Origin: Parazoarcus communis SWub3 = DSM 12120
GTDB taxonomy: Bacteria > Pseudomonadota > Gammaproteobacteria > Burkholderiales > Rhodocyclaceae
DNA: 64,000 nucleotides
Assembly: GCF_003226565.1 (NCBI RefSeq)
Contig: NZ_QKOE01000005.1
Coordinates: 46,846-110,845, forward strand
Direction: 5' to 3'
The translations under genes were made by a program, and so were the position numbers. Below the pieces are notes generated by a model. It had not been told where the DNA came from, did not search any database, and saw only the letters and a program-made list of their open reading frames with translations. This document shows, in pieces, positions 5,313 through 61,225 of this stretch. Positions within the stretch are counted from its first letter, which is position 1; every line of letters starts with the position of its first letter.

Positions 5313-5322
5313 GGGCGGGGAC

Positions 5323-25032: not shown

Positions 25033-25656
25033 TCAGACGCGGGCGGTGGGGATGACTTGACGGAAGGTCAGATTCAGGCGTGCGCCGGAAACTGAGGGGG
25101 AGGTGGGGATGGCATGCTCCCAGTGCTGCTGAAACGGCGCGCGCATGAGTAGCAACAGGCCGGGTGGGAGTGGCAGGCGGCCGGCGTCGCCTGGCGTTCC
25201 GGGTTTCGGTCGCCAATGAAAAGACCGGGTGGCACCCAGGCTCAGAGAGGCGATGTGCGGCGCGGGGCCGAGGTCGTCCTCGTCGTCGGCGTGCCAGCTG
25301 ACATGGTCGTCGCCGTCACGATACAGGTTGGCGAGCACCGCATTGAAGGAGACTCCGCAGCATGCCTCCACGCTGGAACGCAGCGCCTGCAGCCGAGGCG
25401 TCCACGCGTGCGAATTGAGCAGTTGCTGCGCGTAGCGGTATTCCACCCCTGCATCAGCGAACCAGCACTGCAGCCGGGGCAGGGCAAAGCGCCGCCCCGC
25501 TGCGATGTAATGGCCTTCGGTCCATGGCGTTTCGGCAAGCAGGACATCGAACAGGGCCTGAGCTGCAGCGGGGTCGAGCACGCTTGCACAGGCCAGCAAG
25601 GGCTGCCCAGGCACGGGCTGCAGCGGGGGGCTCGCAGGAGGCCGGGTCGCGCTCAT
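25033..25656 (-). CDS. alkB: AlkB-family Fe(II)/2-oxoglutarate-dependent dioxygenase (nucleic-acid demethylase type)
   Basis: WHADDEDDLG and HAIPTS...RLNLTFRQV match the E. coli AlkB HxD...H triad and the NLTFRQ C-terminus. Its ATG overlaps the stop of the upstream 1741-aa gene (ATGA). Confidence 0.8.
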   Translation of the reverse strand: MSATRPPASPPLQPVPGQPLLACASVLDPAAAQALFDVLLAETPWTEGHYIAAGRRFALPRLQCWFADAGVEYRYAQQLLNSHAWTPRLQALRSSVEACCGVSFNAVLANLYRDGDDHVSWHADDEDDLGPAPHIASLSLGATRSFHWRPKPGTPGDAGRLPLPPGLLLLMRAPFQQHWEHAIPTSPSVSGARLNLTFRQVIPTARV

Positions 25657-28600: not shown

Positions 28601-30878
28601 CGTACACCGCTTCGCGCTTGCTTGCGATGTCGGCGAGAAAAGCATCATGGTCGGCAAAGCGGCCTTCGAGTTCTTCGAGTTGTGCGAGCAGGCGGGTCAG
28701 TGCTTCGTCGCACTTCTCCGGGGTGTCGGCCAGTTCGAGCGCATTTTCGACGGCTTGTCCGAACAGTTTGAACTGGGCACCGAACTCGGCTGCGGCCTCG
28801 GTTGCGCCAAGGGAACGTCTGCGGTTGCGGCCTTCGGCACGCAGACGGTTGATTTCGGCATACACCGAGGAGATGCCGTCGAGGATGCGGGTGCGTACCA
28901 CGGCGTCGCCGCCAGGCAGGTTGCCAAGCTGCTCGGTCAATAAGTCGAGCCCGGCCGCGGTCTGGTCTAGTTCGCCGAGCAGGGCGGCAATGTCCTCGCT
29001 GGTGGTGGCGTTTGGCAGTGCGGCGCTCAGCCGGGCAATGTCGCGGTGATGGCGGTCGAAGGCGTGCTCGTCGGCGAGAAAGCGCAGCGCGCGTTCGCCG
29101 ACACTGGTCTGTGCGGCAGCGGCCTCGTCGTCCATTTCCGCAATCTGCGGCAGGTCGGCATAGCGCAGGGCCTTGAGCATCTGCAGCCGGCCACGCTGTT
29201 CGCGCAGGCGGCCCAGGGCCTGGACGAAATCGTCTGGCTGCTGCCATAGCATGCTGGCAATATCGGTGAGCAGCGCACGCTGCTGGGCTTGGGCGTCGGC
29301 CAGTGCGCGGGCGGTGTCGCGACGGATGCTTTCGACCTTTTCAAACTCGTCCAGCGTGCTGCGCGCACCGTCGGCAATGGCCTTGACGTCGGCCGCCAGA
29401 CCGACGGCTTCGGTGGCGTCCAGCCAGAAATAGCTGTCAGCGACTCGCCCGCATTGGCGAATGATTTCTTCGTAGGCGCTGCGGGTGGGGGCCTGCTCGC
29501 TGACCGCGCGGGCGATGGACGACAGTTCGGAGATACCCCTGACCAACTCGGCATTGCCGATACGGCCGAAGAAACCTTGTGCAACCCGGGTGGCTGCATG
29601 TTCGTCGCTGGCAAAGGGGGTCTGCCACAGCTGCATCGGATGGTTGCGCGTGGGCTCGTTGTCTTCCGCCTGGAAGACCAGCATCCGCCCATCCTCGAAG
29701 CGGGCATAGCCGTTGCAGACGATGGGGGTGCCGAGCGTTTTTTCGATCAGGTTGTAGGAGAACAGCGCATAGTGGCCAACGCCCGGGCGGTAGAACACGT
29801 AGAGCACGTCTTCGCCATTGGGGGCTCGCAGCATGCGCTTGAAGCGCAATTCACCGACCATCTCGGCAGGCATGTCGAAGCGCTTGTATTCGCCTGACTG
29901 AAGGTAATAGCCACCCGGGAAGATGATGCCGTGGTCTTCCGGCAGCTGCATGCAGGAGCGGCCGATGGCGTCGATGCGAACGACTTTCTGCACCCGGGTG
30001 TTATAGACCAGGTAGCGCTCATCCTTTTCGCGATAGGGGCGTATCCGCAGCAGGATCAGCGAACCCAGGCGGGCAAAGGCGATGTCGGCATCGGCCAGCG
30101 CCTGATTGCGATCTTCCACCGGTTCGCTGTAGATGCCCAGCCCCGACTCGGTGTTGTTCTCGATCTTGACGGTCAGGTCGCCGCCGACGGTCTCGACGAA
30201 AATGGTGTCGAGAATATTGATGTGAGGGTGCTTGCCACCAATGTGATCTGCCCGCGAGGCCACCGTCCACTCAAAGTCGTGCGTCGGTGGCAGCGCAATG
30301 TCGCGCTCGCCGCGGTTGTCGATGTAGTGAATCGTGCCGTCGTTTTCCACCGCCCAGCGGAATACCCGCAGGTCGTGCAGTTGCTGGCCGATCTGGAAGG
30401 CTGCAAGCAGTTTGTGCTGGTGCACCCGCAGCTGGATCAGGCTGGCTTGCTTGTAATAGGCGTACAGTTCGCGAAAGTCGGCGACGAACCGTGGGTCGTC
30501 CAGAAAACTGCCGGCCAGCGGGAGGGCTTCGAGTTCGTCGGCCCCGTCCTGTTCGGACAGGCGGTAGAGCGCAAACACATCGCTGACTGCGGTTTCCTTG
30601 CGCAGCCCGATGAAGACGTTGAAGCCAAACAGCAGGTGTTCGCCGATACGAACAATGTCGCGCGCGTTGCAGTTGTTTTCGGTGCGCGCGCGGGTGCGTA
30701 GCAGCAGTTGCTGTTCGGCGCGACCAAACTCAGCAATCCTCGCGTCATTGAGCGCACGGATCTTGCCCTGCAGGCTGGCCCCCTGTTCGGCCAGCCGCCG
30801 TTTCAGCAGCTCGTAGCTACCGCTGTCTGCGACCAGGGCTTCGGTGGCGTCAGGCGGGGTGGAAGTCTTGTCGGACAT
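25653..30878 (-). CDS. Large 1741-aa multidomain protein: N-terminal ~430 aa beta-rich region of unknown fold, ~850 aa alpha-helical/coiled-coil body, C-terminal AAA+ ATPase domain (Walker A GYGKTT at aa 1301-1306, Walker B VMLYLDDIQH, sensor-1 AVVMAGNPY) and a ~180-aa helical tail. Proteins of this kind are often generically labelled DNA repair ATPase.
   Basis: One continuous ORF with codon usage typical of this genome. The ATPase block LLLISPPGYGKTTLMEYIADRLGMIFVRINCP aligns to classic AAA modules such as p97 D1 ([31 protein letters not shown]). Co-operonic with flotillin upstream and alkB downstream. Confidence 0.8.
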   Translation of the reverse strand: MSDKTSTPPDATEALVADSGSYELLKRRLAEQGASLQGKIRALNDARIAEFGRAEQQLLLRTRARTENNCNARDIVRIGEHLLFGFNVFIGLRKETAVSDVFALYRLSEQDGADELEALPLAGSFLDDPRFVADFRELYAYYKQASLIQLRVHQHKLLAAFQIGQQLHDLRVFRWAVENDGTIHYIDNRGERDIALPPTHDFEWTVASRADHIGGKHPHINILDTIFVETVGGDLTVKIENNTESGLGIYSEPVEDRNQALADADIAFARLGSLILLRIRPYREKDERYLVYNTRVQKVVRIDAIGRSCMQLPEDHGIIFPGGYYLQSGEYKRFDMPAEMVGELRFKRMLRAPNGEDVLYVFYRPGVGHYALFSYNLIEKTLGTPIVCNGYARFEDGRMLVFQAEDNEPTRNHPMQLWQTPFASDEHAATRVAQGFFGRIGNAELVRGISELSSIARAVSEQAPTRSAYEEIIRQCGRVADSYFWLDATEAVGLAADVKAIADGARSTLDEFEKVESIRRDTARALADAQAQQRALLTDIASMLWQQPDDFVQALGRLREQRGRLQMLKALRYADLPQIAEMDDEAAAAQTSVGERALRFLADEHAFDRHHRDIARLSAALPNATTSEDIAALLGELDQTAAGLDLLTEQLGNLPGGDAVVRTRILDGISSVYAEINRLRAEGRNRRRSLGATEAAAEFGAQFKLFGQAVENALELADTPEKCDEALTRLLAQLEELEGRFADHDAFLADIASKREAVYEAVSARRQSLLDARQRRSQALTEAAGRIVDGIARRVAQLREIEQVHSYFAADALITKLRKQIADLRAIGAAVAADDLDTRLRTAHDQAIRAVRDRRELVAEDGNTLRFGRHAFTVNRQVLDLTLLPRNGEMWFHLTGTDYYAPVADDRLAALRPWWDSPLPSESDQLYRGEYLAASVLEAIEHNRGPLSWQALQTCCAEGPDGLPQLLEALRRFAADRYHEGYQKGVHDQDAARLLQALASMQADAGLLVYGPEARALALLHWSHQAFDSERESLLRRARAATRMVELFDAADSLAQLERETTEALSRFAPKFGFHAKGDTAGQVATEGARYLVRQLAVPRGGEAWVISGAGADLADDLLRRLEQRGELADWQRDLAAAPPEERWQLARAWVSAFCHGQTAATAWIADAATRIALDIERVRVNADLDRRVDGLLGEHPLIVDGALQLNLNELRLRYLQHREQFVPAFEQLQALRLEIVANEKKRLQLDQFQAKPLSSFVRNRLIDEVYLPIVGDNLSKQIGTAGEGSRSDRMGLLLLISPPGYGKTTLMEYIADRLGMIFVRINCPALGHDITALDPASASHSAARQELLKLNLGLAMGNNVMLYLDDIQHTNPEFLQKFIALADGTRRIEAVVNGEPVTCDLRGKRFAVVMAGNPYTESGDVFKIPDMLANRADIYNLGDVLSGREALFGLSYIENCLTANPVLQPLASRDPKDVHLLVRMAEGEEVAASTFSHGYSGAELNELTALLRRLFRARDLLLKVNLAYIESAAQQDAYRTEPPFKLQGSYRNMTKLAGRINASMRDAELDALLRDHYRGEAQTLTTGAEENLLKLSALLGSQTEDESARWQAIREEFIRRRKLGGDEADGSTRIAATLLDIARAVDNLNATLPSGAAVRAGLDAMSASLDKLQPRIEVGAPDTSGFTAALREMQEVYDKVLTPLVTATYRKMRMDHAMWEDMKRIGNLLQRMEGHLPGKEPASR

Positions 30879-30947: not shown

Positions 30948-33053
30948 TCAGGATTTGCGCAGGCTGTCGAGCAGGGTATTCAAGGCGGCGCGCTGGGTGT
31001 CGTCGCCGTCGCGCATGACCTTGCCCAGCAGGGCGGCAACCGAAAGGTTCTGCAACTCACCAGCAGAGCTGCCCAGGGCGCCGATGATGCCGCGCAGGTC
31101 ACCGACCATATCGCGCTGACCGTCGAGATGATCCTTGAGACCAATCTGAAGGGTGTTGCTCTTGGCAATGGCGCCGTCGATGCCCTTGCCGACCGAGAGC
31201 GCATTGACGAAGCGCTCGAAGTAGTCGCCCTGGCCACCAACGATGTCGATGCGTGCATTGGCCAGTGCGGTGCCCAGCACGTCGGCTTGTTCGCGGGCGA
31301 TACCCGTCTGTGCGTCGATGGCTTTCAGGGTCTCGATGTGGGCGTTCTCGAGACGCATGCGGAACTCCTCGTGCGCCCGGGTCTCCTCGCTCATGGCCTT
31401 CATGGCTTCGAACTTTTCCGCCAGGCCACGTGCTTCGGCCTGGAAGCGGGCCGCGATGACTTCCGCTTCGGCGCGGCCGGCCTTCACGGTGGCGTCGGCA
31501 TCGGCGGAGCGAACCTGGACGTCGGCCAGGCCCAGCTTTTCCTTGCCCAGTGCCTCGGCTTCCATGCGTGCCTGAAGGGCGTCGGCCTCGGCATGGCCGT
31601 ACTTGGTCACGGCTTCGGCTTCGGCGATCTTGACCTTGGCGTCGACCAGGCCTTGTTTTTCCTTGGCGTCGGCACTGACCAGCAGCACTTTTGCTTCGGC
31701 CAGGCCTGGGGCGGCGGTGATTGCCTCGATGCCTTCGGCTTCACGCTTCTTGGCCTCTGCTTCCTTTTCCGAGACCTTCAGCCGTGCTTCGGCCAGGGTG
31801 AGCTCTTCTGCGGCACGGTGACGGGCGCGGCGTTCCTGTGCTTCGGCGGCCTTGACCTCCATGATCATCTTTTCCTCGGCCTGACCTTCGGCAAGGATGA
31901 CGGTGGATTTCTTGGTGCGATCAGCATCGGCGACCACACGCAGTTCCTTGATGGCTTCTTCCTGTTCGGCCACGGTACGTTCGACCACGATGCGTTCGCG
32001 GATGACGTCGGCAATCGCCTTCTTCTGCACTTCGACGGCGCGTTCCTTGTCGATCTGTTGCAGGGTGACTTCCTTCTCGCGATCGACGATTTCGAGTTCG
32101 CGGGCGCGGGTGACCTTTTCTTCCTCGATGGCAACCGCACGCTTGCGGTTGTTTTCGGCCACTTCGCGTTCCCGTTGCACGTTTTCCTGCTGCACGGTGA
32201 TGGACTGCTCGGCCTGCAGCCGGGCCAGTTCGGCCTTGGTGTGTTCCTCGGCGCGGATGCGGGCCGTTTCGGCCTCTTCGCGCGCCCGGACCGAGGCAAT
32301 CTCGCGCTGCTGACGGGCTTCTGCGTCGGCTTGCTGACGTTCGAGCTCCAGCAGGGTTTCGCGGGTCTCGACGTCCTTCTTCTTGATCTGCATTTCCTCG
32401 TTGCGGCGCAACTCGTTGGTGCGCACGCTTTCGGTGGCCGTCAGCTCGGTGATCTTCTTGATCCCCTGGGCGTCGAGGATGTTGCTGGGATCAAGCCGCG
32501 ACAGCGGCGTCTGTTCGAGGTAGTCGATCGCCGCGTCTTCGAGCACGTAGCCAGAAAGGTCGTCGCCGATCTGGCGGATGATCTCGTCGCGGAAACGGTC
32601 GCGCGCCTGGTAGAGCTCGACGAAATCCATCGCCTTGCCGACGGTCTTGAGCGCCTCTGAGAACTTGGCCGAGAACAGCTCTTCAAGCGTCTCGTGGTTG
32701 GATGCCCGCTCGCAGCCGATACCCTGCGCCACCTTGAGCACGTCTTCGGCAGTCTTGTTGACCCGCACGAAGAACTTGACCTTGATGTCGGCCCGGATGT
32801 TGTCCTGGCAGATCAGCCCCTCATTGCCCGTGCGGTCGATTTCCACCGTCTTGAGGGCAATATCCATCATCTCGGCCTTGTGGATGATGGGGTACACCAT
32901 GCGCCCGGTGAAGGTCACCTCCGGTTCGCTGCGCAAGGTATTGACGATCATCGCGTAACCCTGTTCCACCTTCTTGTAGAACTTGGCGAACATCGCGAAC
33001 AAGCCGAACAGCAGGAAGGCCAGGATGCCGACGGCAATCAGGATGGGTTCCAT
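30948..33053 (-). CDS. yqiK: Flotillin-family SPFH/Band-7 protein (YqiK-like), 701 aa with a long C-terminal coiled-coil extension
   Basis: N-terminal TM segment, an SPFH domain, and an extended EA/KR-rich flotillin repeat region. Confidence 0.85.
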   Translation of the reverse strand: MEPILIAVGILAFLLFGLFAMFAKFYKKVEQGYAMIVNTLRSEPEVTFTGRMVYPIIHKAEMMDIALKTVEIDRTGNEGLICQDNIRADIKVKFFVRVNKTAEDVLKVAQGIGCERASNHETLEELFSAKFSEALKTVGKAMDFVELYQARDRFRDEIIRQIGDDLSGYVLEDAAIDYLEQTPLSRLDPSNILDAQGIKKITELTATESVRTNELRRNEEMQIKKKDVETRETLLELERQQADAEARQQREIASVRAREEAETARIRAEEHTKAELARLQAEQSITVQQENVQREREVAENNRKRAVAIEEEKVTRARELEIVDREKEVTLQQIDKERAVEVQKKAIADVIRERIVVERTVAEQEEAIKELRVVADADRTKKSTVILAEGQAEEKMIMEVKAAEAQERRARHRAAEELTLAEARLKVSEKEAEAKKREAEGIEAITAAPGLAEAKVLLVSADAKEKQGLVDAKVKIAEAEAVTKYGHAEADALQARMEAEALGKEKLGLADVQVRSADADATVKAGRAEAEVIAARFQAEARGLAEKFEAMKAMSEETRAHEEFRMRLENAHIETLKAIDAQTGIAREQADVLGTALANARIDIVGGQGDYFERFVNALSVGKGIDGAIAKSNTLQIGLKDHLDGQRDMVGDLRGIIGALGSSAGELQNLSVAALLGKVMRDGDDTQRAALNTLLDSLRKS

Positions 33054-35320: not shown

Positions 35321-35619
35321 CAATTGCTTCCAGCTGAAGCGTGAGCGCATGCGCGACGGATTATGCCTTCGTCTTTGGGATTTGCGCTATGAGAAGTGGA
35401 TGAAGCCGACAGGCTGCATGCACCTGCATAGACGCAATGTCGCGCTTTGACGGGATGGTGTGCTGTGCCAGCAAGCCATGCTCTCCCATGACGATCCATC
35501 CTGCGGGCTTCTAGGTCGGGAGGTGGTCGTGATTTGTGGCGTGAATCATGATGCCTTGCCGCACATGCCAAAGCCGATTAGGCTTGAACAGGGCGCTGAC
35601 ACGGGAAGGAGCACGGGTG

Positions 35620-36183
35620 ATGGGTGAAGCTTTGGAATCCGGTTTGTTGAACCGCAAGGCTTACCTTGAGTGGGAAGCCGGACAGGTGGAAAAACACGAA
35701 TATGTGGCTGGCGAGGTGTTCGCGATGGTTGGTGCGCGGCGGGAACACGTGCTGGTCGCAGGGGGGCTGTACGCGAGGTTGAGAGCGCAACTGAAGGGGA
35801 CGCGCTGCCAGGTTTTTGTCTCTGACATGAAGCTCTTCGTTGCGGAAGCTGACGCCTACTTTTATCCAGACGTGATGGTCAGTTGCGACGAAGGTGACCG
35901 CCGTGCCGAGCTGGCAATCGAGCATCCTTGCCTGGTGGTGGAGGTATTGTCCGAGGGTACGGCGGAATACGATCGAGGGGCAAAGTTCGCGGCCTATCGC
36001 AAACTACCGGCCTTGAGCGAGTACCTGCTGGTTGATATCGGAGCCCGTCGCCTGGAGCTGTTCCGGCGTCAGGCTGATGGCTGGTTGATGACCGAGTCTG
36101 TGGCGGGCATGCCGCCGTTGCAATTGCGTAGCGTGGATTGCACGCTGTCTGTCGACGAGGCCTTTGAAGACCTCGTCGATTGA
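35620..36183 (+). CDS. Uma2-family endonuclease (DUF820, PD-(D/E)xK-like putative restriction endonuclease)
   Basis: 188 aa. GGAGG RBS. The motifs PDVMV...ELAIEHPCLVVEVLSEGTAEYDRGAKFAAY match the Uma2 family. Confidence 0.65.
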   Translation: MGEALESGLLNRKAYLEWEAGQVEKHEYVAGEVFAMVGARREHVLVAGGLYARLRAQLKGTRCQVFVSDMKLFVAEADAYFYPDVMVSCDEGDRRAELAIEHPCLVVEVLSEGTAEYDRGAKFAAYRKLPALSEYLLVDIGARRLELFRRQADGWLMTESVAGMPPLQLRSVDCTLSVDEAFEDLVD

Positions 36184-37590: not shown

Positions 37591-40212
37591 ATGAAATCCG
37601 CCGAAATCCGCGACAAGTTCCTCAAGTTTTTCGAATCCAAAGGCCACCAGATCGTGGCGTCGAGTTCGCTCGTGCCGCACGACGATCCGACCCTGCTGTT
37701 TACCAATGCGGGCATGAATCAGTTCAAGGATGTGTTCCTTGGCTTTGACAAGCGTCCCTACACCCGCGCCACGACGTCGCAGAAATGCGTGCGCGCCGGT
37801 GGCAAGCACAACGACCTTGAAAACGTCGGCTACACCGCCCGCCATCACACCTTTTTCGAAATGCTGGGCAACTTCAGCTTTGGCGACTACTTCAAGCGTG
37901 ATGCGATCCGCTACGCCTGGGAGCTGCTGACCGAAGTCTTCAAGCTGCCCAAGGACAAGCTCTGGGTCACCGTCTATGCCGAGGACGACGAGGCCTACGA
38001 CATCTGGACCAAAGAGGTCGGGGTGCCGGCCGAGCGCGTGATCCGCATCGGTGACAACAAGGGGGCGCGCTACGCGTCGGACAACTTTTGGATGATGGGT
38101 GACACCGGCCCCTGCGGTCCGTGTACCGAGATCTTCTACGATCACGGCGAGCACATCTGGGGCGGCCCGCCGGGATCGCCCGAGGAGGACGGTGATCGCT
38201 ACATCGAGATCTGGAACAACGTGTTCATGCAGTTCAACCGCGACGAGGCCGGCGTGATGCATCCGCTGCCCAAGCCCTCGGTGGATACCGGCATGGGGCT
38301 GGAGCGGGTGTCCGCAGTACTGCAGGGCGTACACGCCAACTACGAGATCGACCTGTTCCAGAGCCTGATCAAGGCCGCTGCGCGCGAAACGTCGGATGCG
38401 GACATGGATTCGCCCTCGCTGAAGGTGCTGGCCGATCACATCCGCGCCTGCTCCTTCCTGATCGCCGACGGCGTCATTCCCGGCAACGAGGGGCGTGGCT
38501 ATGTGCTGCGCCGAATCATTCGCCGGGCCATCCGCCACGGTTACAAGCTGGGGGCTCGTGCGGCCTTCTTCCACAAACTGGTGCCCGACCTGGTGGCCGA
38601 GATGGGTGAGGCCTATCCCGAACTGAAGGCCGGCGAGCGTCGCGTGAGCGACGTGCTCCGTCAGGAGGAAGAGCGATTCTTTGCCACCATCGAGAACGGC
38701 ATGGCCATCGTCGAGGCCGAGCTCGACGCCATGGCCCAGGCGGGCAACAAGGTGTTCAACGGCGATACCGCGTTCAAACTGCACGACACCTACGGCTTCC
38801 CGCTGGATCTGACCGCCGACATCTGTCGCGAACGTGAAGTCACCGTCGATGCGGCAGCCTTCGATGCCGCCATGGCGCGGCAGAAGGAGCAGGCGCGTGC
38901 TGCGGGCAAGTTCAAGATGGCTGCCAATCTGGAATACGATGGCCCCGCCACGGCTTTCCACGGATATGAGCGCCTGGAAGAAAAAGGCAACATCCTGGCG
39001 TTGTACAAGGATGGTGCGGCGGTCAACGAACTGGTCGAAGGCGATTTCGGTGTCGTCGTGCTGGATAGCACTCCTTTCTACGCAGAATCCGGTGGTCAGG
39101 TTGGCGATCGTGGTGAACTGAAGGGAAGCGCCGGCATCTTTGCGGTGGAAGATACGCAGAAGGTGCAGGCCGCGGTGTTCGGCCACCACGGCGTGGTCAA
39201 GACCGGTCGTATCGCGGTCGGACAGGGTGTGACCGCCCGCGTCGATGTCGCGGCCCGTGCCGCCACCGCGCGCAATCACTCGGTGACCCACCTGATGCAC
39301 AAGGCATTGCGTGAGGTGCTCGGCAGTCACGTGCAGCAGAAGGGCTCGCAGGTTGATCCGGACAAGACCCGTTTTGACTTCGCCCACACCGCGCCGCTGA
39401 CCGCTGAGGAGATCCGCGAGGTCGAAGAGATCGTCAATGCCGAGATCCTCGCCAATGCGGCAACCGACGCTTCGGTGATGGCGCTGGAGGATGCGCAGAA
39501 GACCGGCGCGATGATGCTGTTCGGCGAGAAGTACGCCGATGAAGTGCGGGTACTGACCATCGGTTCGTCCAAGGAACTTTGCGGCGGCACACATGTGAGC
39601 CGTACCGGTGACATCGGCCTGTTCAAGATCGTTGTCGAAGGTGGTGTTGCAGCTGGCGTGCGCCGGGTTGAGGCGGTGACCGGCGAGAACGCGCTGCGTT
39701 ATGCACAGGAGCAGGAGCGCCGTGTGCAGGGCGTATCCGCACTGCTGAAGGTGCAGCCGGAAGAAGTGGCCGAGCGTGTTGCCGGTATCCTGGACAACGT
39801 CCGCGTGCTGGAAAAGGAACTCGCCCGCCTGAAGTCCAAGCTTGCCGCCAGTCAGGGCGATGACCTGGTGGCGCAGGCTGTCGAGGTGAACGGTATCAAG
39901 GTACTGGCGGCCACGCTGGACGGCGCAGATCTACCGACCTTGCGCGAGACCATGGACAAGCTCAAGGACAAGCTCAAGACGGCAGCCATCGTGCTGGGCT
40001 CGGTCGCCGATGGCAAGGTGTCGCTGATCGCCGGGGTGACGGCGGACTCGACGGCCAAGGTCAAGGCGGGCGAACTGGTGAACTTTGTTGCCCAGCAAGT
40101 GGGTGGCAAGGGCGGCGGCCGTCCGGACATGGCCCAGGCCGGCGGTACCGAGCCTGACAAGCTGCCGGCCGCACTGGCCGCAGTGGCCGGCTGGGTGGGC
40201 GGCAAGCTGTAA
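37591..40212 (+). CDS. alaS: Alanine--tRNA ligase
   Basis: 873 aa. Full-length match to AlaS (e.g. [10 protein letters not shown], the C-terminal editing domain and the DHHA1 domain). Confidence 0.95.
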
Positions 40213-42519: not shown

Positions 42520-44115
42520 TCAGTGACGGAAGTGGCGGAAGCCGGTGAACACCATGGCGATGTTCTGTTCGTCCGCGGCGGCGATCACTTCGGCGTCGCG
42601 CATCGAACCCCCCGGCTGGATCACGGCAGTGGCACCGGCCTGAGCCAGCACGTCCAGACCGTCACGGAAGGGGAAGAATGCGTCTGATGCGACCACGCAA
42701 CCGGGAATCGACAGACCGGCGTTCTCGGCCTTGATCTTGGCAATGCGGGCGGAATCCACCCGGCTCATCTGCCCGGCACCGACGCCAATGGTCATGCCGT
42801 CCTTGCAATAGACGATGGCGTTGGACTTCACGTACTTGGCCACGCGCCAGGCGAACAGCATGTCGCGCATCTCGGTCTCGGTTGGCGCGCGCTTGGTGAC
42901 CACCTTCAGGTCAACGAGCTGGATACGGGCTTCGTCAGCGCTCTGCACCAGCAGGCCGCCGCCCACGCGCTTGTAGTCGAATGCGCCTGCAGGCTGACCC
43001 AGCGGGCAGGTCAGCACGCGCACGTTCTGCTTGGCACGCAGCAACTCCAGTGCGTCGGCAGTGTAGGACGGGGCGATCAGCACTTCGAGGAACTGGGCCG
43101 ACACCGCTTCGGCTGCGGCACGGTCAACTTCGACGTTGAAGGCAATGATGCCGCCAAAGGCCGAGGTCGGATCGGTGGAGAAGGCCTTCTTGTAAGCTTC
43201 CAGAGGGCTCGTGCCGAGTGCGACGCCACAGGGGTTGGCGTGCTTGACGATCACGCAGGCGGCGTTTGCCGTGTCCCTGTCGAAGGCTTTCACGCATTCC
43301 CAGGCCGCATCTGCGTCGGCGATGTTGTTGTAGGACAGCTCCTTGCCCTGCAACTGGGTATAGCTGGCGATACCGCCTTCAGCGGCGTTGGGTTCCTTGT
43401 AGAAGGCTGCGCTCTGATGCGGGTTCTCGCCGTAGCGCAGGTTCTGCACCTTGTCGAAGGCGAGCTGAAAGCGTTCCGGGTAGGTCTGCCGGGACACGTC
43501 ACCTGCATCGTTGGTGACCAGCGCGGTCAGGTGGTTGGAGATTGCCGAATCGTAGCGTGCGGTGTGGGTGAATGCCTTGACTGCCAGTGCGAAGCGGGTC
43601 TTGTAGGACAGTTTGCCGGCGTTGGCCTTGAGCTCGGCGATGATACCGGCGTAGTCGTCCGGGTCGGTGACGATGCCGACACCACCGGCTTCGTCGCCAT
43701 GGTTCTTGGCGGCTGCGCGAACCATGGTCGGGCCGCCGATATCGATGTTCTCGATGGCGTCTTCCAGCGTGCAATCGGGGCGGGCCACGGTGGCCTGGAA
43801 AGGATAGAGGTTGACCACGACCAGATCGATGCGGCTGATGTCGTGGGCGGCGATGGTCTGCATGTGTTCGGCCAGGTCGCGGCGGGCGAGGATGCCGCCA
43901 TGGACCTTGGGATGCAGGGTCTTGACCCGGCCATCGAGCATTTCGGGAAAGCCGGTGTGCTCGGAAACATCGGTCACCTCGAGGCCGGCTTCGCGCAGCA
44001 GGGTGGCGGTGCCGCCGGTGGACAGGAGCTTGACGCCGAGTCCGGCCAGTTCACGGGCAAATTCGAGGGCGCCGCGCTTGTCGGAGACGCTGATCAGGGC
44101 TTGGGTGACGTTCAT
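42520..44115 (-). CDS. purH: Bifunctional AICAR transformylase / IMP cyclohydrolase PurH
   Basis: 531 aa. N-terminal [15 protein letters not shown] and a C-terminal HFRH motif. Confidence 0.95.
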
Positions 44116-56756: not shown

Positions 56757-57518
56757 TCAGCGACTCAGCTCGAGTACCACCGGTGCGTGGTCGGATGGGC
56801 GCTCCAACCGCCGTGGCGCCTTGTCGACGACGCAGCTGCGGCATTGAGTTTGCAGACTGGGCGAGACCAGCACATGATCGATGCGCAGACCCATGTTGCG
56901 ACGGAACGCCATCATCCTGTAGTCCCACCACGAAAAACTGCGTTCAGGCTGCTCGAACAGGCGGAACGCATCGACCAGCCCCAGACCGGTCAGGGTGCGG
57001 AACGCTTCACGTTCGGGCACCGAGACATGGATTTCATGCTCCCAGTCAGGATGTGCGTCGCGGTCTTCCGGCGCAATATTGAAGTCACCGGTCAGGACCA
57101 GCTCGGGAAAGCGGACAAGCTCTGCCTGAACCCATGCAGTCAGCGCCTCGAGCCAACGCAGCTTGTACTCGAACTTGTCCGAACCGACGGCCTGTCCGTT
57201 CGGAAAATAGCCGCAGATCACCCTCACGCCACCCACGGTGGCGGCGATGATGCGCTTCTGCTCGTCTTCGAAGCCAGGAATGCCGCGTACGACGTCCTCG
57301 GTGGGTGTCGAGCTGATGATGGCGACACCGTTATAGGTTTTCTGGCCACTGAACACGGCGTGATAGCCCGCTGCCTCGATCTCGGCCAGCGGGAAGGCCT
57401 TGTCCTCCATCTTGAGTTCCTGCAGGCAGAGCGCGTCAGGCCGATGTGCTGCCAGCCAGTCGAGGACATGGGGCAGGCGGATCTTGAGGGAGTTTACATT
57501 CCAGGTGGCAATTTTCAT
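56757..57518 (-). CDS. xthA: Exodeoxyribonuclease III (Xth)
   Basis: MKIATWNVNSL, LCLQELK, and the C-terminal SDHAPV are EEP-family motifs. Confidence 0.9.
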   Translation of the reverse strand: MKIATWNVNSLKIRLPHVLDWLAAHRPDALCLQELKMEDKAFPLAEIEAAGYHAVFSGQKTYNGVAIISSTPTEDVVRGIPGFEDEQKRIIAATVGGVRVICGYFPNGQAVGSDKFEYKLRWLEALTAWVQAELVRFPELVLTGDFNIAPEDRDAHPDWEHEIHVSVPEREAFRTLTGLGLVDAFRLFEQPERSFSWWDYRMMAFRRNMGLRIDHVLVSPSLQTQCRSCVVDKAPRRLERPSDHAPVVLELSR

Positions 57519-57687
57519 GAGAGTTCCGGACGATGGGGTGTCATCGCGTCGCAGCCAGATCCCTGGCCGCGTGTGCTGATGCCCAATGCGCGTTGTGATG
57601 TCAATGGCGGATGGTAGCGCATTCGTGCGGCTGGGCGGCAGCGTATCCGGCAGATCAGTGGATGTGTGCGATGCGCACAATGGCGGT

Positions 57688-57704
57688 GCGGCACTTTTCT
57701 TGCT
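57688..57704 (+). promoter_or_regulatory. Candidate sigma-54 (-24/-12) promoter cGGCACttttcTTGCt, about 115 nt upstream of the Amt-GGDEF-EAL gene
   Basis: GG and GC dinucleotides are spaced exactly as in the consensus TGGCACG-N4-TTGCW. Immediately upstream are GCAC-N7-GTGC and TGTGCG-N3-CGCACA inverted repeats of the kind bound by enhancer-binding proteins. Confidence 0.45.
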
Positions 57705-57832
57705 CGTTGCACTATGAAGTATTGGATCGAGGCTTGGAATGTATTTCTTTAGCGATAGAAGCACCAAAGCAGGGCGAGCGGGTTTGAGCATTTGCCCCGA
57801 TCCTGTGCGTAAAGACTGGGGCCGGTGATCAA

Positions 57833-60800
57833 ATGAGTGCGGTGGACATCGATGTGATGTGGGTGCTGGTTTGCGCCGGCCTGGTGTTCCTGATGCAGCC
57901 GGGCTTCCTGTGCCTGGAGTCGGGGCTGACCCGTAGCCGGAATGCGATCAATGTGGCGATCAAGAACGTCGTCGATTTTGCCATTGCGGTGGCGCTCTAC
58001 TGGGGCGTCGGTTTTGGCCTGATGTTCGGTGCCAGCAAACTGGGCTGGCTGGGCCTGGAGGGCTTCATGCCCGAGGTTGGCCATGGGAGTACGAACTCGC
58101 TGACGGCATTCTTCCTGTTTCAGGCGATGTTCTGCTCTACCGCAGCGACCATTGTGTCCGGCGCGGTGGCGGAGCGGATGCGGTTTGCCGCTTATTTGCT
58201 GGTGGCGGCACTGGTGGCAGGTTTGATCTACCCGGTTTTCGGGCATTGGGCCTGGGGTGGGGTGCTCGGGGGACCGCGTGGCTGGCTGGCCGAATTGGGG
58301 TTCATTGATTTCGCCGGGGCAACGGTTGTTCACAGCGTGGGGGGCTGGGTCGCGCTGGCCGCGGTACTGATCATTGGCCCCAGAAGTGGGCGTTTTGAGG
58401 GGCGCGATGCGCAACAGCCGATGTCGGGCGGTAACCTGCCGATGGCGATGCTGGGAGTGATGCTGCTGCTGTTTGGCTGGCTCGGATTCAATGGCGGAAG
58501 CACGCTGGCCCTGAATGAGCGGGTGCCGGGCATCCTTGCCAATACGGTGCTGGGTGCAGTGGGCGGCATCCTGGTCGGGTTGCTCATGGGATGGCGCTTG
58601 CGAGGCTATGCCGATGTGGTGCACACCCTGAACGGCGCCATTGCCGGTCTGGTGGCGGTGACTGCGGGCGCCCACCTGTTGGGTACGGGCGCCGCGATCC
58701 TGGTGGGTACCGGTGGAGCCCTCGTCATGGTGCTGTGTCATGAGGCCTTGCTGCGTCGCAGGATCGACGATGCCGTGGGTGCCATTCCTGCGCATCTTGC
58801 TGCGGGGGTGTGGGGCACGCTGGCGCTTGCGCTGTTGGGGGATTCCGCTGCGTTTGCATCAGGACTGGGGCGTGGTGAGCAACTGCTGGTGCAACTTGCC
58901 GGTGTGGTGGCCTGCGGGCTGTGGTCTTTTGGCATGGCCTGGGTGTTGCTGCGCGTGCTGGATCGCTTTTTGCCGCTGCGGGTCTCGGCCGAGGACGAGC
59001 GGATCGGGCTCAATGTGTCCGAACATGGGGCCCGTACCGAGTTGATGGAGTTGCTGCAGGTGATGGAGTTGCAGGAGCGTACCGGGCAGTTGTCAGTACG
59101 GGCGCCAGTGGAGCCTTTCTCCGAGGTCGGGCAGATCGCTGCCGGCTACAACCGGATGATGTCGGCACTGGAACGTGCAGTGGAGCAGACCCGCGCCATT
59201 GTGCGTGACATGCGTGACGGCATCATCACTTTTGGCCGGGATGGTGTCCTGCGCAGCGTCAATCCCGGCGCTGAAAAGCTGTTCGGACTTGCGGCGGGGC
59301 AAGGTGTGGGAATGAGTCTGGCCCGCTTGCTCGCCGACCCGCCCATCGTCCCTGAACATCAGGTCGAGCGCCTGATGGCGGCGCAGGACAAGACCGAACT
59401 GCGCCTGCACCGGCGGGGGGCAGAGCCCCGGGTGCTGGAGGTGTCCGTCAGCGAAGGCCTGGTGGACGGCGCAGCGATGTTCACCGGTCTGGTCCGGGAT
59501 GTCACCGAGCGGCGACAGATGGCGGACCAGTTGCAGCGTGAGCGGGACCTGGCCCAGGTGACACTGGCCTCGATCGGAGACGGCGTGATCACCACCGACG
59601 AGTCGGGTGCGGTGCAATACCTGAACCCGACAGCCGAGCGTCTGACCGGTTGGTCGCTGGAAGAGGCGCGTGGGCGCAACATTGCGACCATTTACCGTCT
59701 TGAGGATGAACTTTCGGGCCGTCCGCTGGAGAATCCCGTACGGCTCGTGTTGGCACAGGGGCATGAAACCCGGTCGGAGGATCATGGCCTTCTGGTGCGC
59801 CGCGACGGTGAGCGCATCCCGGTGCAGGATACCGCCGCACCCATCCGCAGCCGTCTGGGTTATCTGATTGGTGTCGTCCTGGTCTGTCACGACGTCACGT
59901 TGACCTTGAACCTGACCCGTGAGCTGACCCGCCAGGCCAGTCACGATGCCCTGACCGGCATTCCCAACCGTCGGGAGTTCGAAAGACGCCTGGCCGAGAT
60001 GCTGACGGCCGGCATTGATCCGGCGGTTTCACATATCGTCTGCTACCTTGATCTGGACCAGTTCAAGGTGGTGAACGACACCTGCGGCCATGTTGCCGGT
60101 GATGAGCTCCTGCGGCAGGTCAGTACCTTGATGCGGCAACGCATGCGTAGTGCCGATCTGCTGGCTCGGCTGGGGGGCGATGAGTTTGGTGTGATTTTCT
60201 TCAGCTGCCCGGTCGACCAGGCCTTGCGCATGGCCGAAGGCTTCCGCGAAGCGATCCGTGATTATCGCTTTGCCTGGGAGGGTAAATCGTTCTCGATCGG
60301 GGTCAGTATCGGTCTGGTACCGGTGACCGAGTCCGATCGCGACATGGGGCGCATCCTGTCGGCTGCTGATACGGCCTGCTATGCGGCCAAGGAAGGTGGG
60401 CGCAACCGGGTGCATCTCTATCGTCCCGATGACGATCAACTGGCTGAGCGTCACGGCCAGATGCAATGGGTGGCGCGTCTGCACAGCGCGCTCGATGAGG
60501 ACAGGCTGAGGTTGTACGTGCAGCCGATCGTGCCGCTGACACCGGGTGAGGCGGTGCACTTCGAGATCCTGGTCCGACTCGAGGAAGACGGGCGCCTGAT
60601 CAGCCCGGGGAGCTTCATTCCGGCAGCAGAACGCTACAATCTGATGCCGCGTATCGATGAATGGGTGTTTCGCAATGTACTGGCCTGGGTCGGCGACACC
60701 TATCGCAAGGAAGGTCGGGTCGAGGGGACCTGGTGCATCAACCTGTCGGGCAATTCGCTCAGCGACGAGCGCTTGCTGGCTGATATCCGCGCGGGGCTGG

Positions 60801-61225
60801 AGCGTGCAGCCTTGCCGCCTGGCGCCATCTGCCTGGAGATCACCGAGAGTTCTGCAGTGGCCAACCTGTCGAGGGTGGTGAGCTTCATTGCCGAGGTCAA
60901 ACAGCTTGGTTGCGCTTTCGCACTGGATGACTTTGGCAGTGGTCTGTCCTCGTTTGCCTATCTCAAGACCTTGCCCGTGGATTATCTGAAGATCGACGGC
61001 TCCTTCGTGCGGGATATCGCGACCGACCCGACCGACCGTGCCATGGTGCAGGCCATCCACACCATTGGCCATACGATGGGTCTGGCGACGATTGCTGAAT
61101 TCGTCGAGGACGAGGCGATTCTGGAGGTGCTGCGCGAGATCGGTGTCGACTACGCGCAGGGCTTCCATGTTGGTGTTCCCCGCCCGCTGGCGGAGATGGG
61201 CAAGGTGCGGATGATGCCGAGGTAG
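57833..61225 (+). CDS. Fusion protein: N-terminal Amt/MEP ammonium-transporter domain (~400 aa, 11 TM), then PAS domains, an intact GGDEF domain and an intact EAL domain
   Basis: The Amt domain aligns to E. coli AmtB, with both pore histidines retained: DFAGATVVHS for AmtB H168, and PAHLAAGVWG for AmtB H318. Other matching segments include GAVAERMRF, NLPMAMLGVMLLLFGWLGFNGGS and LRVSAEDERIGLNVSEHG. GGDEF (RLGGDEFGV) and EAL (EITES, DDFGSGLSS) motifs are intact. Confidence 0.9.
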   Translation: MSAVDIDVMWVLVCAGLVFLMQPGFLCLESGLTRSRNAINVAIKNVVDFAIAVALYWGVGFGLMFGASKLGWLGLEGFMPEVGHGSTNSLTAFFLFQAMFCSTAATIVSGAVAERMRFAAYLLVAALVAGLIYPVFGHWAWGGVLGGPRGWLAELGFIDFAGATVVHSVGGWVALAAVLIIGPRSGRFEGRDAQQPMSGGNLPMAMLGVMLLLFGWLGFNGGSTLALNERVPGILANTVLGAVGGILVGLLMGWRLRGYADVVHTLNGAIAGLVAVTAGAHLLGTGAAILVGTGGALVMVLCHEALLRRRIDDAVGAIPAHLAAGVWGTLALALLGDSAAFASGLGRGEQLLVQLAGVVACGLWSFGMAWVLLRVLDRFLPLRVSAEDERIGLNVSEHGARTELMELLQVMELQERTGQLSVRAPVEPFSEVGQIAAGYNRMMSALERAVEQTRAIVRDMRDGIITFGRDGVLRSVNPGAEKLFGLAAGQGVGMSLARLLADPPIVPEHQVERLMAAQDKTELRLHRRGAEPRVLEVSVSEGLVDGAAMFTGLVRDVTERRQMADQLQRERDLAQVTLASIGDGVITTDESGAVQYLNPTAERLTGWSLEEARGRNIATIYRLEDELSGRPLENPVRLVLAQGHETRSEDHGLLVRRDGERIPVQDTAAPIRSRLGYLIGVVLVCHDVTLTLNLTRELTRQASHDALTGIPNRREFERRLAEMLTAGIDPAVSHIVCYLDLDQFKVVNDTCGHVAGDELLRQVSTLMRQRMRSADLLARLGGDEFGVIFFSCPVDQALRMAEGFREAIRDYRFAWEGKSFSIGVSIGLVPVTESDRDMGRILSAADTACYAAKEGGRNRVHLYRPDDDQLAERHGQMQWVARLHSALDEDRLRLYVQPIVPLTPGEAVHFEILVRLEEDGRLISPGSFIPAAERYNLMPRIDEWVFRNVLAWVGDTYRKEGRVEGTWCINLSGNSLSDERLLADIRAGLERAALPPGAICLEITESSAVANLSRVVSFIAEVKQLGCAFALDDFGSGLSSFAYLKTLPVDYLKIDGSFVRDIATDPTDRAMVQAIHTIGHTMGLATIAEFVEDEAILEVLREIGVDYAQGFHVGVPRPLAEMGKVRMMPR

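What the first reader, a model, noticed from the sequence alone, without database searches (positions are those of the whole stretch)
57833..61225. Ammonium-transporter (Amt) domain fused to PAS-GGDEF-EAL: candidate ammonium transceptor controlling c-di-GMP
A complete AmtB-like 11-TM domain with both pore histidines conserved is followed in the same polypeptide by PAS domains and catalytically intact GGDEF and EAL domains. Amt fusions to signalling domains have been noted in comparative-genomic surveys, but to my knowledge none with GGDEF-EAL has been characterised. This would couple external ammonium directly to c-di-GMP turnover.
Basis: partly seen in the sequence, partly recalled or inferred. 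Interest (0 to 1): 0.6.

Follow-up and report, generated by a model that had tools for sequence, protein, structure and literature searches.

The report
Ammonium receptor fused to c-di-GMP enzymes
This gene encodes a membrane ammonium sensor of an already described class (sensor Amt proteins, "AmR") joined to enzymes that make and break the bacterial messenger c-di-GMP; it is real and intact, but the sensing principle was solved in 2024 and the orthologue in a sister species has already been called a likely ammonium "transceptor".

Summary
ORF 57833..61225(+) encodes 1130 aa in this order: an 11-helix Amt domain, a HAMP-like two-helix linker, PAS, PAS, GGDEF and EAL. All catalytic residues are intact.

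The Amt domain is not AmtB-like. Its nearest solved relatives are the two characterised ammonium receptors, Sd-Amt1 (Amt-HAMP-GGDEF; 49% identity, E 1e-125) and Ks-Amt5. It matches the published receptor signature QX6EX15NX2D[F/T]X54-60TX2[S/T]. All 17 functional residues of Sd-Amt1 are identical, including the N1/N2 ammonium pocket, the Lys/Tyr switch and the Asn that narrows the cytoplasmic exit. Transporters differ at these sensor-specific positions.

The C-terminal 560 residues are 51% identical to P. aeruginosa RbdA, an autoinhibited, GTP-stimulated phosphodiesterase.

The exact protein is in RefSeq (Parazoarcus communis, "ammonium transporter"). Its Azoarcus olearius BH72 orthologue AmtE was called a likely "transceptor" in 2021 and is induced 36-fold under N2 fixation. 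A sigma-54-type promoter lies upstream here.

Most likely it is an ammonium receptor, not a transporter, that gates c-di-GMP turnover. The direction of that control is unknown. It is a new, uncharacterised member of a known kind, of modest interest.

The parts
57689..57704 (+). Sigma-54-type promoter element cGGCAC-N5-TTGCT (GG-N10-GC spacing), about 130 bp upstream of the ATG
   Evidence: Read directly. It is the only match to GGCAC-N5-TTGCW in the 64-kb window (chance expectation 0.56 for the whole window, so its position and orientation in a 314-bp intergenic region is what counts). GGCACTCTTCTTGCT is conserved in the P. communis locus L002, and A. olearius has TGGCGC-N5-TTGCT nearby. This fits the 36-fold induction of amtE under N2 fixation in BH72. 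Function is inferred, not shown.
57833..61225 (+). Whole gene (amtE orthologue), 1130 aa plus stop
   Evidence: The exact sequence is WP_110524024.1, 'ammonium transporter [Parazoarcus communis]'.
57833..59035 (+). Amt-fold sensor domain, aa 1-401, 11 TM helices
   Evidence: Pfam E 2.8e-110. Sd-Amt1 E 1.4e-125 at 49% identity, Ks-Amt5 3.4e-86, Af-Amt1 4.5e-55, AmtB 2.5e-44. The AF2 model against Sd-Amt1 gives TM-score 0.95, rmsd 1.8 A.
57896..58159 (+). N1/N2 ammonium-binding signature, aa 22-109 (Q22, E29, N45, D48, F49, T106, S109), with switch Lys K44 inside this span
   Evidence: The regex of the published signature matches the query, Sd-Amt1 and Ks-Amt5 but not Af-Amt1 or Ec-AmtB. These residues are invariant in 120 homologues except S109A in 15. 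They are near-invariant in the 150 nearest cluster representatives. The related residues Y121 (switch Tyr) and N267 (exit constriction) lie downstream of this span and are also conserved.
59036..59215 (+). HAMP-like two-helix linker, aa 402-461
   Evidence: Aligns to the Sd-Amt1 HAMP region up to residue 445. AF2 gives helices 403-417 and 431-461. The Pfam HAMP hit is below threshold (20.1 bits against a cutoff of 25, E 8e-4). The family consensus GDLxxRVPVEPFTEVGQIAxAYNRV resembles the canonical HAMP AS1-connector-AS2 motif (the motif comparison is from my own knowledge). 141 of the 150 nearest Amt-domain relatives share this linker.
59216..59503 (+). PAS domain 1, aa 462-557
   Evidence: PAS_4 at E 2.5e-10, scanned alone. 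AF2 shows a PAS-type beta sheet at 463-556. No cofactor motif recognised.
59579..59896 (+). PAS domain 2, aa 583-688, homologous to the RbdA PAS domain
   Evidence: Pfam PAS at 577-688. Aligns to 5xgb from its first residue.
59936..60418 (+). GGDEF domain, aa 702-862, with A-site and I-site intact
60464..61174 (+). EAL domain, aa 878-1114, all catalytic residues intact (motif EIL)
   Evidence: The RbdA EAL structure 8pps matches at 54-55% identity, TM-score 0.86-0.88.

Best explanation
The gene encodes a sensor-type Amt protein (an 'AmR' ammonium receptor in the sense of Pfluger et al. 2018 and 2024) whose output is an RbdA-like PAS-GGDEF-EAL module. The proposed mechanism has five steps. (1) The gene is transcribed from a sigma-54 promoter when fixed nitrogen is scarce. 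This is inferred from the promoter motif and from the BH72 orthologue. (2) The protein forms the usual Amt trimer. Periplasmic NH4+ is selected by the Trp/Ser vestibule, the Phe gate and the twin His. Conservation is shown; function is inferred. (3) Instead of leaving through the cytoplasmic funnel, which N267 narrows, two NH4+ ions are diverted into the lateral N1/N2 pocket (E29, N45, D48, T106, S109). E29 releases K44, and Y121 flips. This is inferred by residue-for-residue identity with Sd-Amt1, where it was seen crystallographically. (4) The movement at the C-terminal end of TM11 is passed to the HAMP-like helices. These pair two of the three protomers and reorient the PAS1-PAS2 dimer. This step is inferred. 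(5) The reorientation releases the autoinhibited GGDEF-EAL tandem. My best guess for direction is that ammonium occupancy activates the EAL phosphodiesterase, with the GGDEF A-site acting mainly as a GTP sensor as in RbdA. That would lower c-di-GMP when ammonium reappears. I put this direction at roughly 50%; the alternative is net cyclase activation, as in Sd-Amt1. The protein most likely senses ammonium rather than supplying it.
For: The sensor clade assignment rests on several results. PDB hits rank Sd-Amt1 (1.4e-125), then Ks-Amt5 (3.4e-86), well ahead of Af-Amt1 (4.5e-55) and AmtB (2.5e-44). All 17 functional residues of Sd-Amt1 are identical in the query, whereas Af-Amt1 and AmtB differ at every sensor-specific position (Y in place of E29, S in place of N267, and so on). 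The published signature matches. These residues are invariant in 120 full-length homologues and in the 150 nearest cluster representatives, 149 of which are over 480 aa and so carry extra sequence beyond the Amt domain. The structure model superposes on Sd-Amt1 at TM-score 0.95. The linker is homologous to the Sd-Amt1 HAMP region. The output module matches RbdA at E 6.5e-175 and 51% identity. Catalytic residues of both domains are invariant. Experimental facts on the relatives come from papers: Sd-Amt1 shows NH4+-dependent cyclase activity and binding-dominated electrophysiology (PMC11152129), and RbdA is PDE-dominant, autoinhibited and GTP-stimulated (PMC11372557). For nitrogen-regulated expression, amtE is induced 36-fold in BH72 (PMC8467165) and a sigma-54 motif lies upstream here.
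Against: There are no experimental data for this protein or for any Amt-PAS-GGDEF-EAL protein. The same 2024 paper notes that some signature-bearing Amts (plant AMT1s) do transport, so the signature does not prove loss of transport. The HAMP assignment is below Pfam's threshold. Two PAS domains lie between the sensor and the enzymes and could carry their own signals, or invert the sign. The direction of the c-di-GMP change cannot be read from sequence, because both catalytic sites and the I-site are intact. How a trimeric sensor drives a dimeric output is unresolved even for Sd-Amt1. The sigma-54 motif on its own is not statistically remarkable at the scale of the window.
Confidence: 0.75

Rival explanations
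1. It is a true transceptor: the Amt domain both translocates ammonium for assimilation and signals to the GGDEF-EAL module.
For: The complete selectivity and pore set is conserved: W141, S223, F100, F219, H167, H321, D159. [quoted passage not shown] They also note that some signature-bearing Amts, the plant AMT1s, are transporters. The BH72 paper uses the word 'transceptor' and lists amtE among four high-affinity transporter genes.
Against: E29 and N267 replace the Tyr and Ser that line the exit funnel in all characterised assimilatory Amts. The two closest solved relatives are dominated by binding, not translocation. No glnK is adjacent or anywhere in the window, whereas assimilatory amtB is typically paired with glnK. 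BH72 has separate amtB-glnK genes.
Confidence: 0.17
2. It is an ammonium-activated net diguanylate cyclase, like Sd-Amt1. Ammonium raises c-di-GMP, and the EAL domain acts only as a brake or a feedback element.
For: The only characterised Amt-GGDEF protein responds to NH4+ with a roughly 10-fold higher cyclase kcat/KM. The GGDEF A-site and the RxxD I-site are invariant in this family, as expected for a working, product-inhibited cyclase.
Against: The output module is far closer to RbdA (51% identity over PAS-GGDEF-EAL) than to the Sd-Amt1 cyclase. In RbdA the PDE dominates in vivo, and the GGDEF acts as a GTP-dependent allosteric site. All EAL catalytic residues are also invariant. This rival is a sub-variant of the best explanation (same sensor, opposite sign), so its confidence is not additive with it.
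Confidence: 0.3
3. The Amt domain is only a membrane anchor or oligomerisation scaffold. The real inputs are the PAS domains (for example redox, O2 or a metabolite), and ammonium is irrelevant.
For: There are two PAS domains of unknown ligand. RbdA-type modules respond to several cues.
Against: A mere anchor would not keep every pore and N1/N2 residue invariant across proteins only 57% identical overall and across 150 clusters with unrelated outputs.
Confidence: 0.04

Closest known systems
Sd-Amt1 of Shewanella denitrificans (Amt-HAMP-GGDEF ammonium receptor; PDB 8qj3, 8qj4, 8qpf; Pfluger et al. 2024, PMC11152129)
   Same: The Amt sensor domain is 49% identical and all 17 functional residues are identical, including the N1/N2 pocket, the K/Y switch and the exit Asn. 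The HAMP-like linker is homologous. The signalling currency is c-di-GMP. Both have a GGDEF with an RxxD I-site.
   Different: Sd-Amt1 is 644 aa and goes straight from HAMP to a single GGDEF. This protein inserts two PAS domains and adds a catalytically intact EAL domain, so the output can in principle run in either direction. The GGDEF-EAL part is related to RbdA rather than to the Sd-Amt1 cyclase.
AmtE of Azoarcus olearius BH72 (CAL95495.1 / A1K9J0, 'Probable ammonia permease with sensory box/GGDEF domains')
   Same: It is the orthologue: 77% identical over the full length, with the same architecture and the same neighbourhood (lptD-surA-pdxA-rsmA ... crp-xthA | amtE | DUF4124-prlC). It was described as likely a 'transceptor' and is induced 36-fold under N2-fixing conditions.
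   Different: Only expression data exist for AmtE; there is no biochemistry. That P0007/P0271 is AmtE is inferred: it is the Amt-GGDEF-EAL protein recorded for BH72, but the paper's locus tag was not checked.
RbdA (PA0861) of Pseudomonas aeruginosa, PAS-GGDEF-EAL (PDB 5xgb, 5xgd, 5xge, 8pps)
   Same: Residues 560-1121 align to the cytoplasmic RbdA fragment at E 6.5e-175 and 51% identity, with the same catalytic and I-site residues. RbdA is a PDE-dominant, autoinhibited, GTP-stimulated dispersal regulator, and its mutant no longer disperses in response to ammonium chloride.
   Different: The input of RbdA is a helical periplasmic domain between two TM helices. Here it is an 11-TM Amt receptor plus HAMP-like linker plus an extra PAS domain.
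Ks-Amt5 of 'Ca. Kuenenia stuttgartiensis' (Amt-histidine kinase; PDB 6eu6)
   Same: It has the N1/N2 pocket and an Amt fold repurposed as a receptor. It is 40% identical in the Amt domain.
   Different: Its output is a histidine kinase and it has no HAMP. It has Arg in place of K44, Asn in place of Y121 and Thr in place of N267. The 150 nearest cluster representatives of the query's Amt domain are nevertheless mostly HAMP-PAS-histidine-kinase fusions.
Assimilatory AmtB / Af-Amt1 transporters
   Same: They share the fold, the trimer-forming family, the Trp/Ser vestibule, the Phe gate and the twin His.
   Different: They lack the N1/N2 ligands. They have Tyr and Ser lining an open exit funnel where the query has E29 and N267. 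They are 35% identical, have no fused output, and are usually paired with glnK.

Membership tests
AmR (sensor Amt-like ammonium receptors; Pfluger 2018, 2024) | Amt/Rh fold with 11 TM helices | tested here: met
   Pfam PF00909 E 2.8e-110. AF2 model with 11 TM helices. TM-score 0.95 to Sd-Amt1 and 0.93 to Ks-Amt5.
AmR (sensor Amt-like ammonium receptors; Pfluger 2018, 2024) | Canonical selectivity path retained (Trp/Ser vestibule, Phe gate, twin His) | tested here: met
   W141, S223, F100, F219, H167, H321; invariant in 120 homologues.
AmR (sensor Amt-like ammonium receptors; Pfluger 2018, 2024) | N1/N2 signature QX6EX15NX2D[F/T]X54-60TX2[S/T] | tested here: met
   The regex matches aa 22-109. 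The positive controls Sd-Amt1 and Ks-Amt5 match; the negative controls Af-Amt1 and Ec-AmtB do not.
AmR (sensor Amt-like ammonium receptors; Pfluger 2018, 2024) | Switch residues (Lys44/Tyr119 in Sd-Amt1) and constricted cytoplasmic exit (Asn269 in Sd-Amt1) | tested here: met
   K44, Y121, N267; invariant in the family; 150, 148 and 141 of 150 in the wider clade.
AmR (sensor Amt-like ammonium receptors; Pfluger 2018, 2024) | C-terminally fused cytoplasmic transducer module | tested here: met
   HAMP-like linker, PAS, PAS, GGDEF, EAL in one ORF.
AmR (sensor Amt-like ammonium receptors; Pfluger 2018, 2024) | Binds NH4+ without net translocation; output activity depends on NH4+ | not testable with these tools
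   Needs SSM electrophysiology and enzyme assays on purified protein.
Assimilatory Amt transporters (AmtB / Af-Amt1 type, 'cluster 1') | Tyr and Ser lining an open cytoplasmic exit (Af Y27/S251; Ec Y32/S263); no N1/N2 ligands | tested here: not met
   The query has E29 and N267 and the full N1/N2 ligand set.
Assimilatory Amt transporters (AmtB / Af-Amt1 type, 'cluster 1') | Genetic linkage to glnK (typical, not universal) | tested here: not met
The neighbours are xthA/crp and DUF4124/prlC, as in the orthologous loci.
RbdA-type PAS-GGDEF-EAL phosphodiesterases | Homologous PAS-GGDEF-EAL tandem with an intact EAL catalytic set and an intact GGDEF A-site for GTP | tested here: met
   5xgb E 6.5e-175 over residues 560-1120; 51% identity; catalytic residues invariant (numbering onto PleD and RocR is from my own knowledge).
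RbdA-type PAS-GGDEF-EAL phosphodiesterases | N-terminal two-TM periplasmic sensor domain | tested here: not met
   The N-terminus is an 11-TM Amt domain. It therefore works like RbdA at the output end but is not an RbdA orthologue.
RbdA-type PAS-GGDEF-EAL phosphodiesterases | PDE dominant in vivo, autoinhibited, stimulated by GTP | not testable with these tools
   Needs enzymology and genetics.
HAMP domain (PF00672) | Reaches the Pfam gathering score; two amphipathic helices joined by a connector | tested here: inconclusive
   Pfam HAMP scores 20.1 bits against a cutoff of 25, covering AS2 only. AF2 predicts helices 403-417 and 431-461. The region aligns to the part of Sd-Amt1 that its authors call HAMP.

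The most novel reading that the evidence does not exclude
The protein could be a bidirectional switch. Occupancy of the N1/N2 pocket would toggle one polypeptide between a cyclase-competent and a phosphodiesterase-competent dimer across a trimer-to-dimer symmetry break. The two PAS domains would gate this with a second signal such as redox state or O2. The protein would then act as a coincidence detector linking nitrogen supply to the sessile-or-motile decision in a diazotroph. No characterised AmR has a two-way output or a second input.
Probability: 0.2. Interest if true: 0.55.

Novelty: new member of a known kind. Interest (0 to 1): 0.3.

Why it matters
Only two sensor Amt proteins have been studied, one with a kinase output and one with a cyclase output. 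This family is widespread: Zoogloeaceae, Burkholderiales, Halomonadaceae, Ectothiorhodospiraceae, Marinobacter, Methylophaga, Pseudomonas neustonica and even a Desulfovibrionaceae MAG. It joins the same ammonium pocket to a tandem that can both make and break c-di-GMP. It is therefore a ready-made system for two questions. One is how a trimeric receptor controls a dimeric, autoinhibited GGDEF-EAL enzyme. The other is how nitrogen availability feeds into biofilm and motility decisions in plant-associated N2 fixers such as Azoarcus and Parazoarcus. There is also a practical point: RefSeq names these proteins simply 'ammonium transporter', which probably misstates their function. The concept itself is not new.

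Tried and rejected
- **Conserved partner genes:** I looked for neighbours that might reveal the downstream pathway. Synteny holds only within Zoogloeaceae, with housekeeping neighbours. The Halomonas and Hydrogenophaga loci share nothing. The gene appears to stand alone.
- **NtrC enhancer site:** I found none by eye upstream of the sigma-54 motif. There is only a 6-bp inverted repeat, TGTGCG-ATG-CGCACA, at 57665-57679, which is too short to mean much. My first sigma-54 pattern (TGGC-N8-TGCW) missed the site because the first base is C.
- **RNA genes:** Rfam and tRNA scans of the window found nothing.
- **Species-level genome scan:** It mostly returned RbdA-like proteins without an Amt domain, so it shows taxonomic breadth but gives no count.
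- **Pfam census of the 150 nearest representatives:** the full set exceeded the residue limit. I scanned every third one instead.
- **Literature:** the Tremblay and Hallenbeck 2009 review on Amt fusions is not held. The Thiomicrospira and Dechloromonas genome papers do not describe an Amt-GGDEF-EAL fusion.
- **Rejected idea, fusion artefact or pseudogene:** the full length is conserved in every one of the 120 homologues listed.
- **Rejected idea, degenerate GGDEF or EAL:** every catalytic residue is invariant.
- **PAS cofactors:** I saw no LOV-type or haem-type motif in either PAS domain, judged by eye only.


Full report
**Observation.** The window carries an uninterrupted ORF from ATG 57833 to the stop ending at 61225 on the + strand, encoding 1130 aa.
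- Pfam finds Ammonium_transp at residues 9-401 (E 2.8e-110), two PAS stretches, GGDEF at 702-859 (8.8e-39) and EAL at 882-1114 (1e-63). NCBIfam agrees.
- The first PAS domain, scanned alone, scores PAS_4 at E 2.5e-10.
- An AlphaFold2 model built on 49 family members has mean pLDDT 81. It shows 11 transmembrane helices, a short helix (403-417) and a long helix (431-461), PAS1 (463-556), a linker helix, PAS2 (584-687), GGDEF and EAL.
- The start codon is secure. TM1 starts at the N-terminus exactly as in Sd-Amt1.

**Which kind of Amt domain it is.** A sequence search of the PDB ranks the hits as follows:

| Protein | Type | E-value |
|---|---|---|
| Sd-Amt1 (8qj3, 8qpf) | ammonium receptor | 1.4e-125 |
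| Ks-Amt5 (6eu6) | ammonium receptor | 3.4e-86 |
| Af-Amt1 | transporter | 4.5e-55 |
| E. coli AmtB | transporter | 2.5e-44 |

- Sd-Amt1 and Ks-Amt5 are the only two characterised ammonium receptors ("AmR"). In them, an Amt fold selects NH4+ and passes it through the twin-His motif. It then diverts two ions into a lateral N1/N2 pocket instead of releasing them to the cytoplasm (PMC5764959, PMC11152129).
- I mapped every residue that the Sd-Amt1 paper names onto the query. All 17 are identical:
  - N1/N2 pocket: Q22, F25, E29, N45, D48, F49, T106, S109
  - Lys/Tyr switch: K44, Y121
  - exit constriction: N267
  - selectivity path: W141, S223, F100, F219, H167, H321
- At the sensor-specific positions the two transporters differ. 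For example they have Tyr where the query has E29, and Ser where it has N267.
- The published AmR signature QX6EX15NX2D[F/T]X54-60TX2[S/T] matches query residues 22-109. It matches Sd-Amt1 and Ks-Amt5 but not Af-Amt1 or AmtB.
- The model's Amt domain superposes on Sd-Amt1 at TM-score 0.95 and rmsd 1.8 A.

**Conservation.**
- All 120 best database hits (57-100% identity, full length) share the same Amt-PAS-GGDEF-EAL architecture.
- Across them the sensor residues are invariant, except S109A in 15.
- An exhaustive search with the Amt domain alone gave a best-150 list of 50%-identity cluster representatives. 149 of them are over 480 aa (median about 950 aa), so they carry extra sequence beyond the Amt domain.
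  - 141 share the HAMP-like linker.
  - The N1/N2 residues are near-invariant in them.
  - In a Pfam census of every third one, 34 of 50 have HATPase_c, 28 HisKA, 18 receiver domains, 4 GGDEF, 3 EAL and 4 SpoIIE. One each has a nucleotide cyclase domain, MCP and STAS.

The query's sensor therefore belongs to a large receptor clade with interchangeable outputs, in which GGDEF-EAL is a minority output.

**Linker.**
- Residues 402-445 align to the part of Sd-Amt1 that its authors describe as a HAMP domain.
- Pfam's HAMP model hits residues 417-447 below threshold (20.1 bits against a cutoff of 25).
- The family consensus GDLxxRVPVEPFTEVGQIAxAYNRV resembles the canonical HAMP AS1-connector-AS2 motif. 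That comparison is from my own knowledge.

I call it HAMP-like.

**Output module.**
- Residues 560-1121 match the crystallised PAS-GGDEF-EAL fragment of P. aeruginosa RbdA (PA0861) at E 6.5e-175 and 51% identity.
- The GGDEF A-site, the RxxD I-site and the full EAL catalytic set are present and invariant in the family. The EAL motif reads EIL.
- RbdA is a phosphodiesterase-dominant regulator of biofilm dispersal. Its GGDEF-EAL tandem is autoinhibited, and GTP binding to the GGDEF domain stimulates it. Its deletion mutant no longer disperses in response to ammonium chloride (PMC11372557).

**Identity and context.**
- The exact protein is RefSeq WP_110524024.1, "ammonium transporter [Parazoarcus communis]".
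- The locus is syntenic with P. communis and Azoarcus olearius: lptD-surA-pdxA-rsmA ... crp-xthA | this gene | DUF4124-prlC.
- Distant orthologues in Halomonas and Hydrogenophaga share no neighbours, so there is no operon partner.
- The window holds no other Amt gene and no glnK.
- Upstream at 57689-57704 lies cGGCAC-N5-TTGCT, a sigma-54-type -24/-12 element. It is the only such match in the window, and it is conserved in P. communis. A. olearius has an equivalent TGGCGC-N5-TTGCT.
- The BH72 orthologue (77% identity; annotated "Probable ammonia permease with sensory box/GGDEF domains") is the gene called amtE. It is induced 36-fold under N2-fixing conditions and has been described as "likely a transceptor" (PMC8467165).

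**Mechanism.** The best-supported reading is an ammonium receptor that is made when nitrogen is scarce. NH4+ passes the selectivity path and occupies N1/N2. E29 lets go of K44, and Y121 flips. The change at the cytoplasmic end of TM11 is passed through the HAMP-like helices and the PAS1-PAS2 pair to the autoinhibited GGDEF-EAL tandem.
- Shown here: residue conservation and homology.
- Shown in relatives: the pocket, the switch, the NH4+-dependent output, and the autoinhibition.
- Inferred: everything about this protein's actual activity.

By analogy with RbdA I favour ammonium switching on the phosphodiesterase, which would lower c-di-GMP when ammonium returns. I put this at only about even odds, because Sd-Amt1 responds with higher cyclase activity and both catalytic sites are intact here.

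**Rivals.**
- True transceptor. This cannot be excluded, because the Sd-Amt1 authors themselves note that some signature-bearing Amts transport. Against it stand the E29/N267 substitutions, the behaviour of the closest relatives, and the lack of glnK.
- Amt domain as a passive anchor. This is contradicted by invariance of every pore and pocket residue.

**Novelty.**
- The sensing principle and the Amt-to-c-di-GMP link were established experimentally in 2024.
- This architecture was noticed in genome and transcriptome papers in 2010 and 2021.
- In six literature searches I found no biochemical or genetic study of an Amt-PAS-GGDEF-EAL protein.
- It is an uncharacterised member of a known class, with an output arrangement (two PAS domains plus a bifunctional tandem) not yet studied in that class.

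I score interest at 0.3. It is a sound experimental target, but it would not surprise a specialist.

Noticed in passing
window 25653..30878 (-) and 30948..33053 (-): A 1741-aa protein with DUF3686 ('ATPase involved in DNA repair', E 2e-197), DUF7902 and an AAA region sits next to a 701-aa ORF with no Pfam family. Neither matches any PADLOC defence model. Function unknown.
   Followed up: partly
window 35548..36183 (+): A 211-aa ORF matches the PADLOC candidate defence family PDC-S03 (E 6e-24). It lies in a 33-37 kb stretch that has only short ORFs and no rRNA or tRNA.
   Followed up: partly
window 14070..16748 (-): A second PAS-GGDEF-EAL protein (892 aa) without an Amt domain. It is 35-37% identical to the output domains of the gene under study, so it is a paralogue, not a duplicate.
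   Followed up: partly
window 57665..57679 (+): A perfect 6-bp inverted repeat, TGTGCG-ATG-CGCACA, lies about 10 bp upstream of the sigma-54-like element. It is partly conserved in P. communis. It is too short to be significant on its own, but could be a regulator site.
   Followed up: no
window 57671..57832 (+): Several other assemblies call a 1184-aa version of this protein with a 54-residue N-terminal extension. In this window the same frame has a TGA at 57785-57787, and TM1 aligns from residue 9 with Sd-Amt1. The extension is probably a gene-calling artefact or a strain difference.
   Followed up: partly
window 57500..59500: The Amt-coding part has very strong strand composition bias (GC skew up to 0.23, AT skew down to -0.37). 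This would be expected from G/T-rich codons for Gly, Val, Leu, Phe and Trp in a polytopic membrane domain, and is not a replication signal.
   Followed up: no
P0121-P0270 (nearest Amt-domain cluster representatives): The receptor-type Amt domain with its HAMP-like linker is fused mostly to PAS/GAF-histidine kinase-receiver modules. It is also fused to SpoIIE phosphatases, a nucleotide cyclase, an MCP signalling domain and STAS. This is a much wider output repertoire than the two characterised examples.
   Followed up: partly
window 5272..8409 (+), 37591..40212 (+), 42520..44115 (-), 16845..18185 (-), 8994..10619 (-): Ordinary housekeeping context: an AcrB-type RND pump, alanyl-tRNA synthetase, PurH, PmbA/TldD and a BT1-family transporter.
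   Followed up: no
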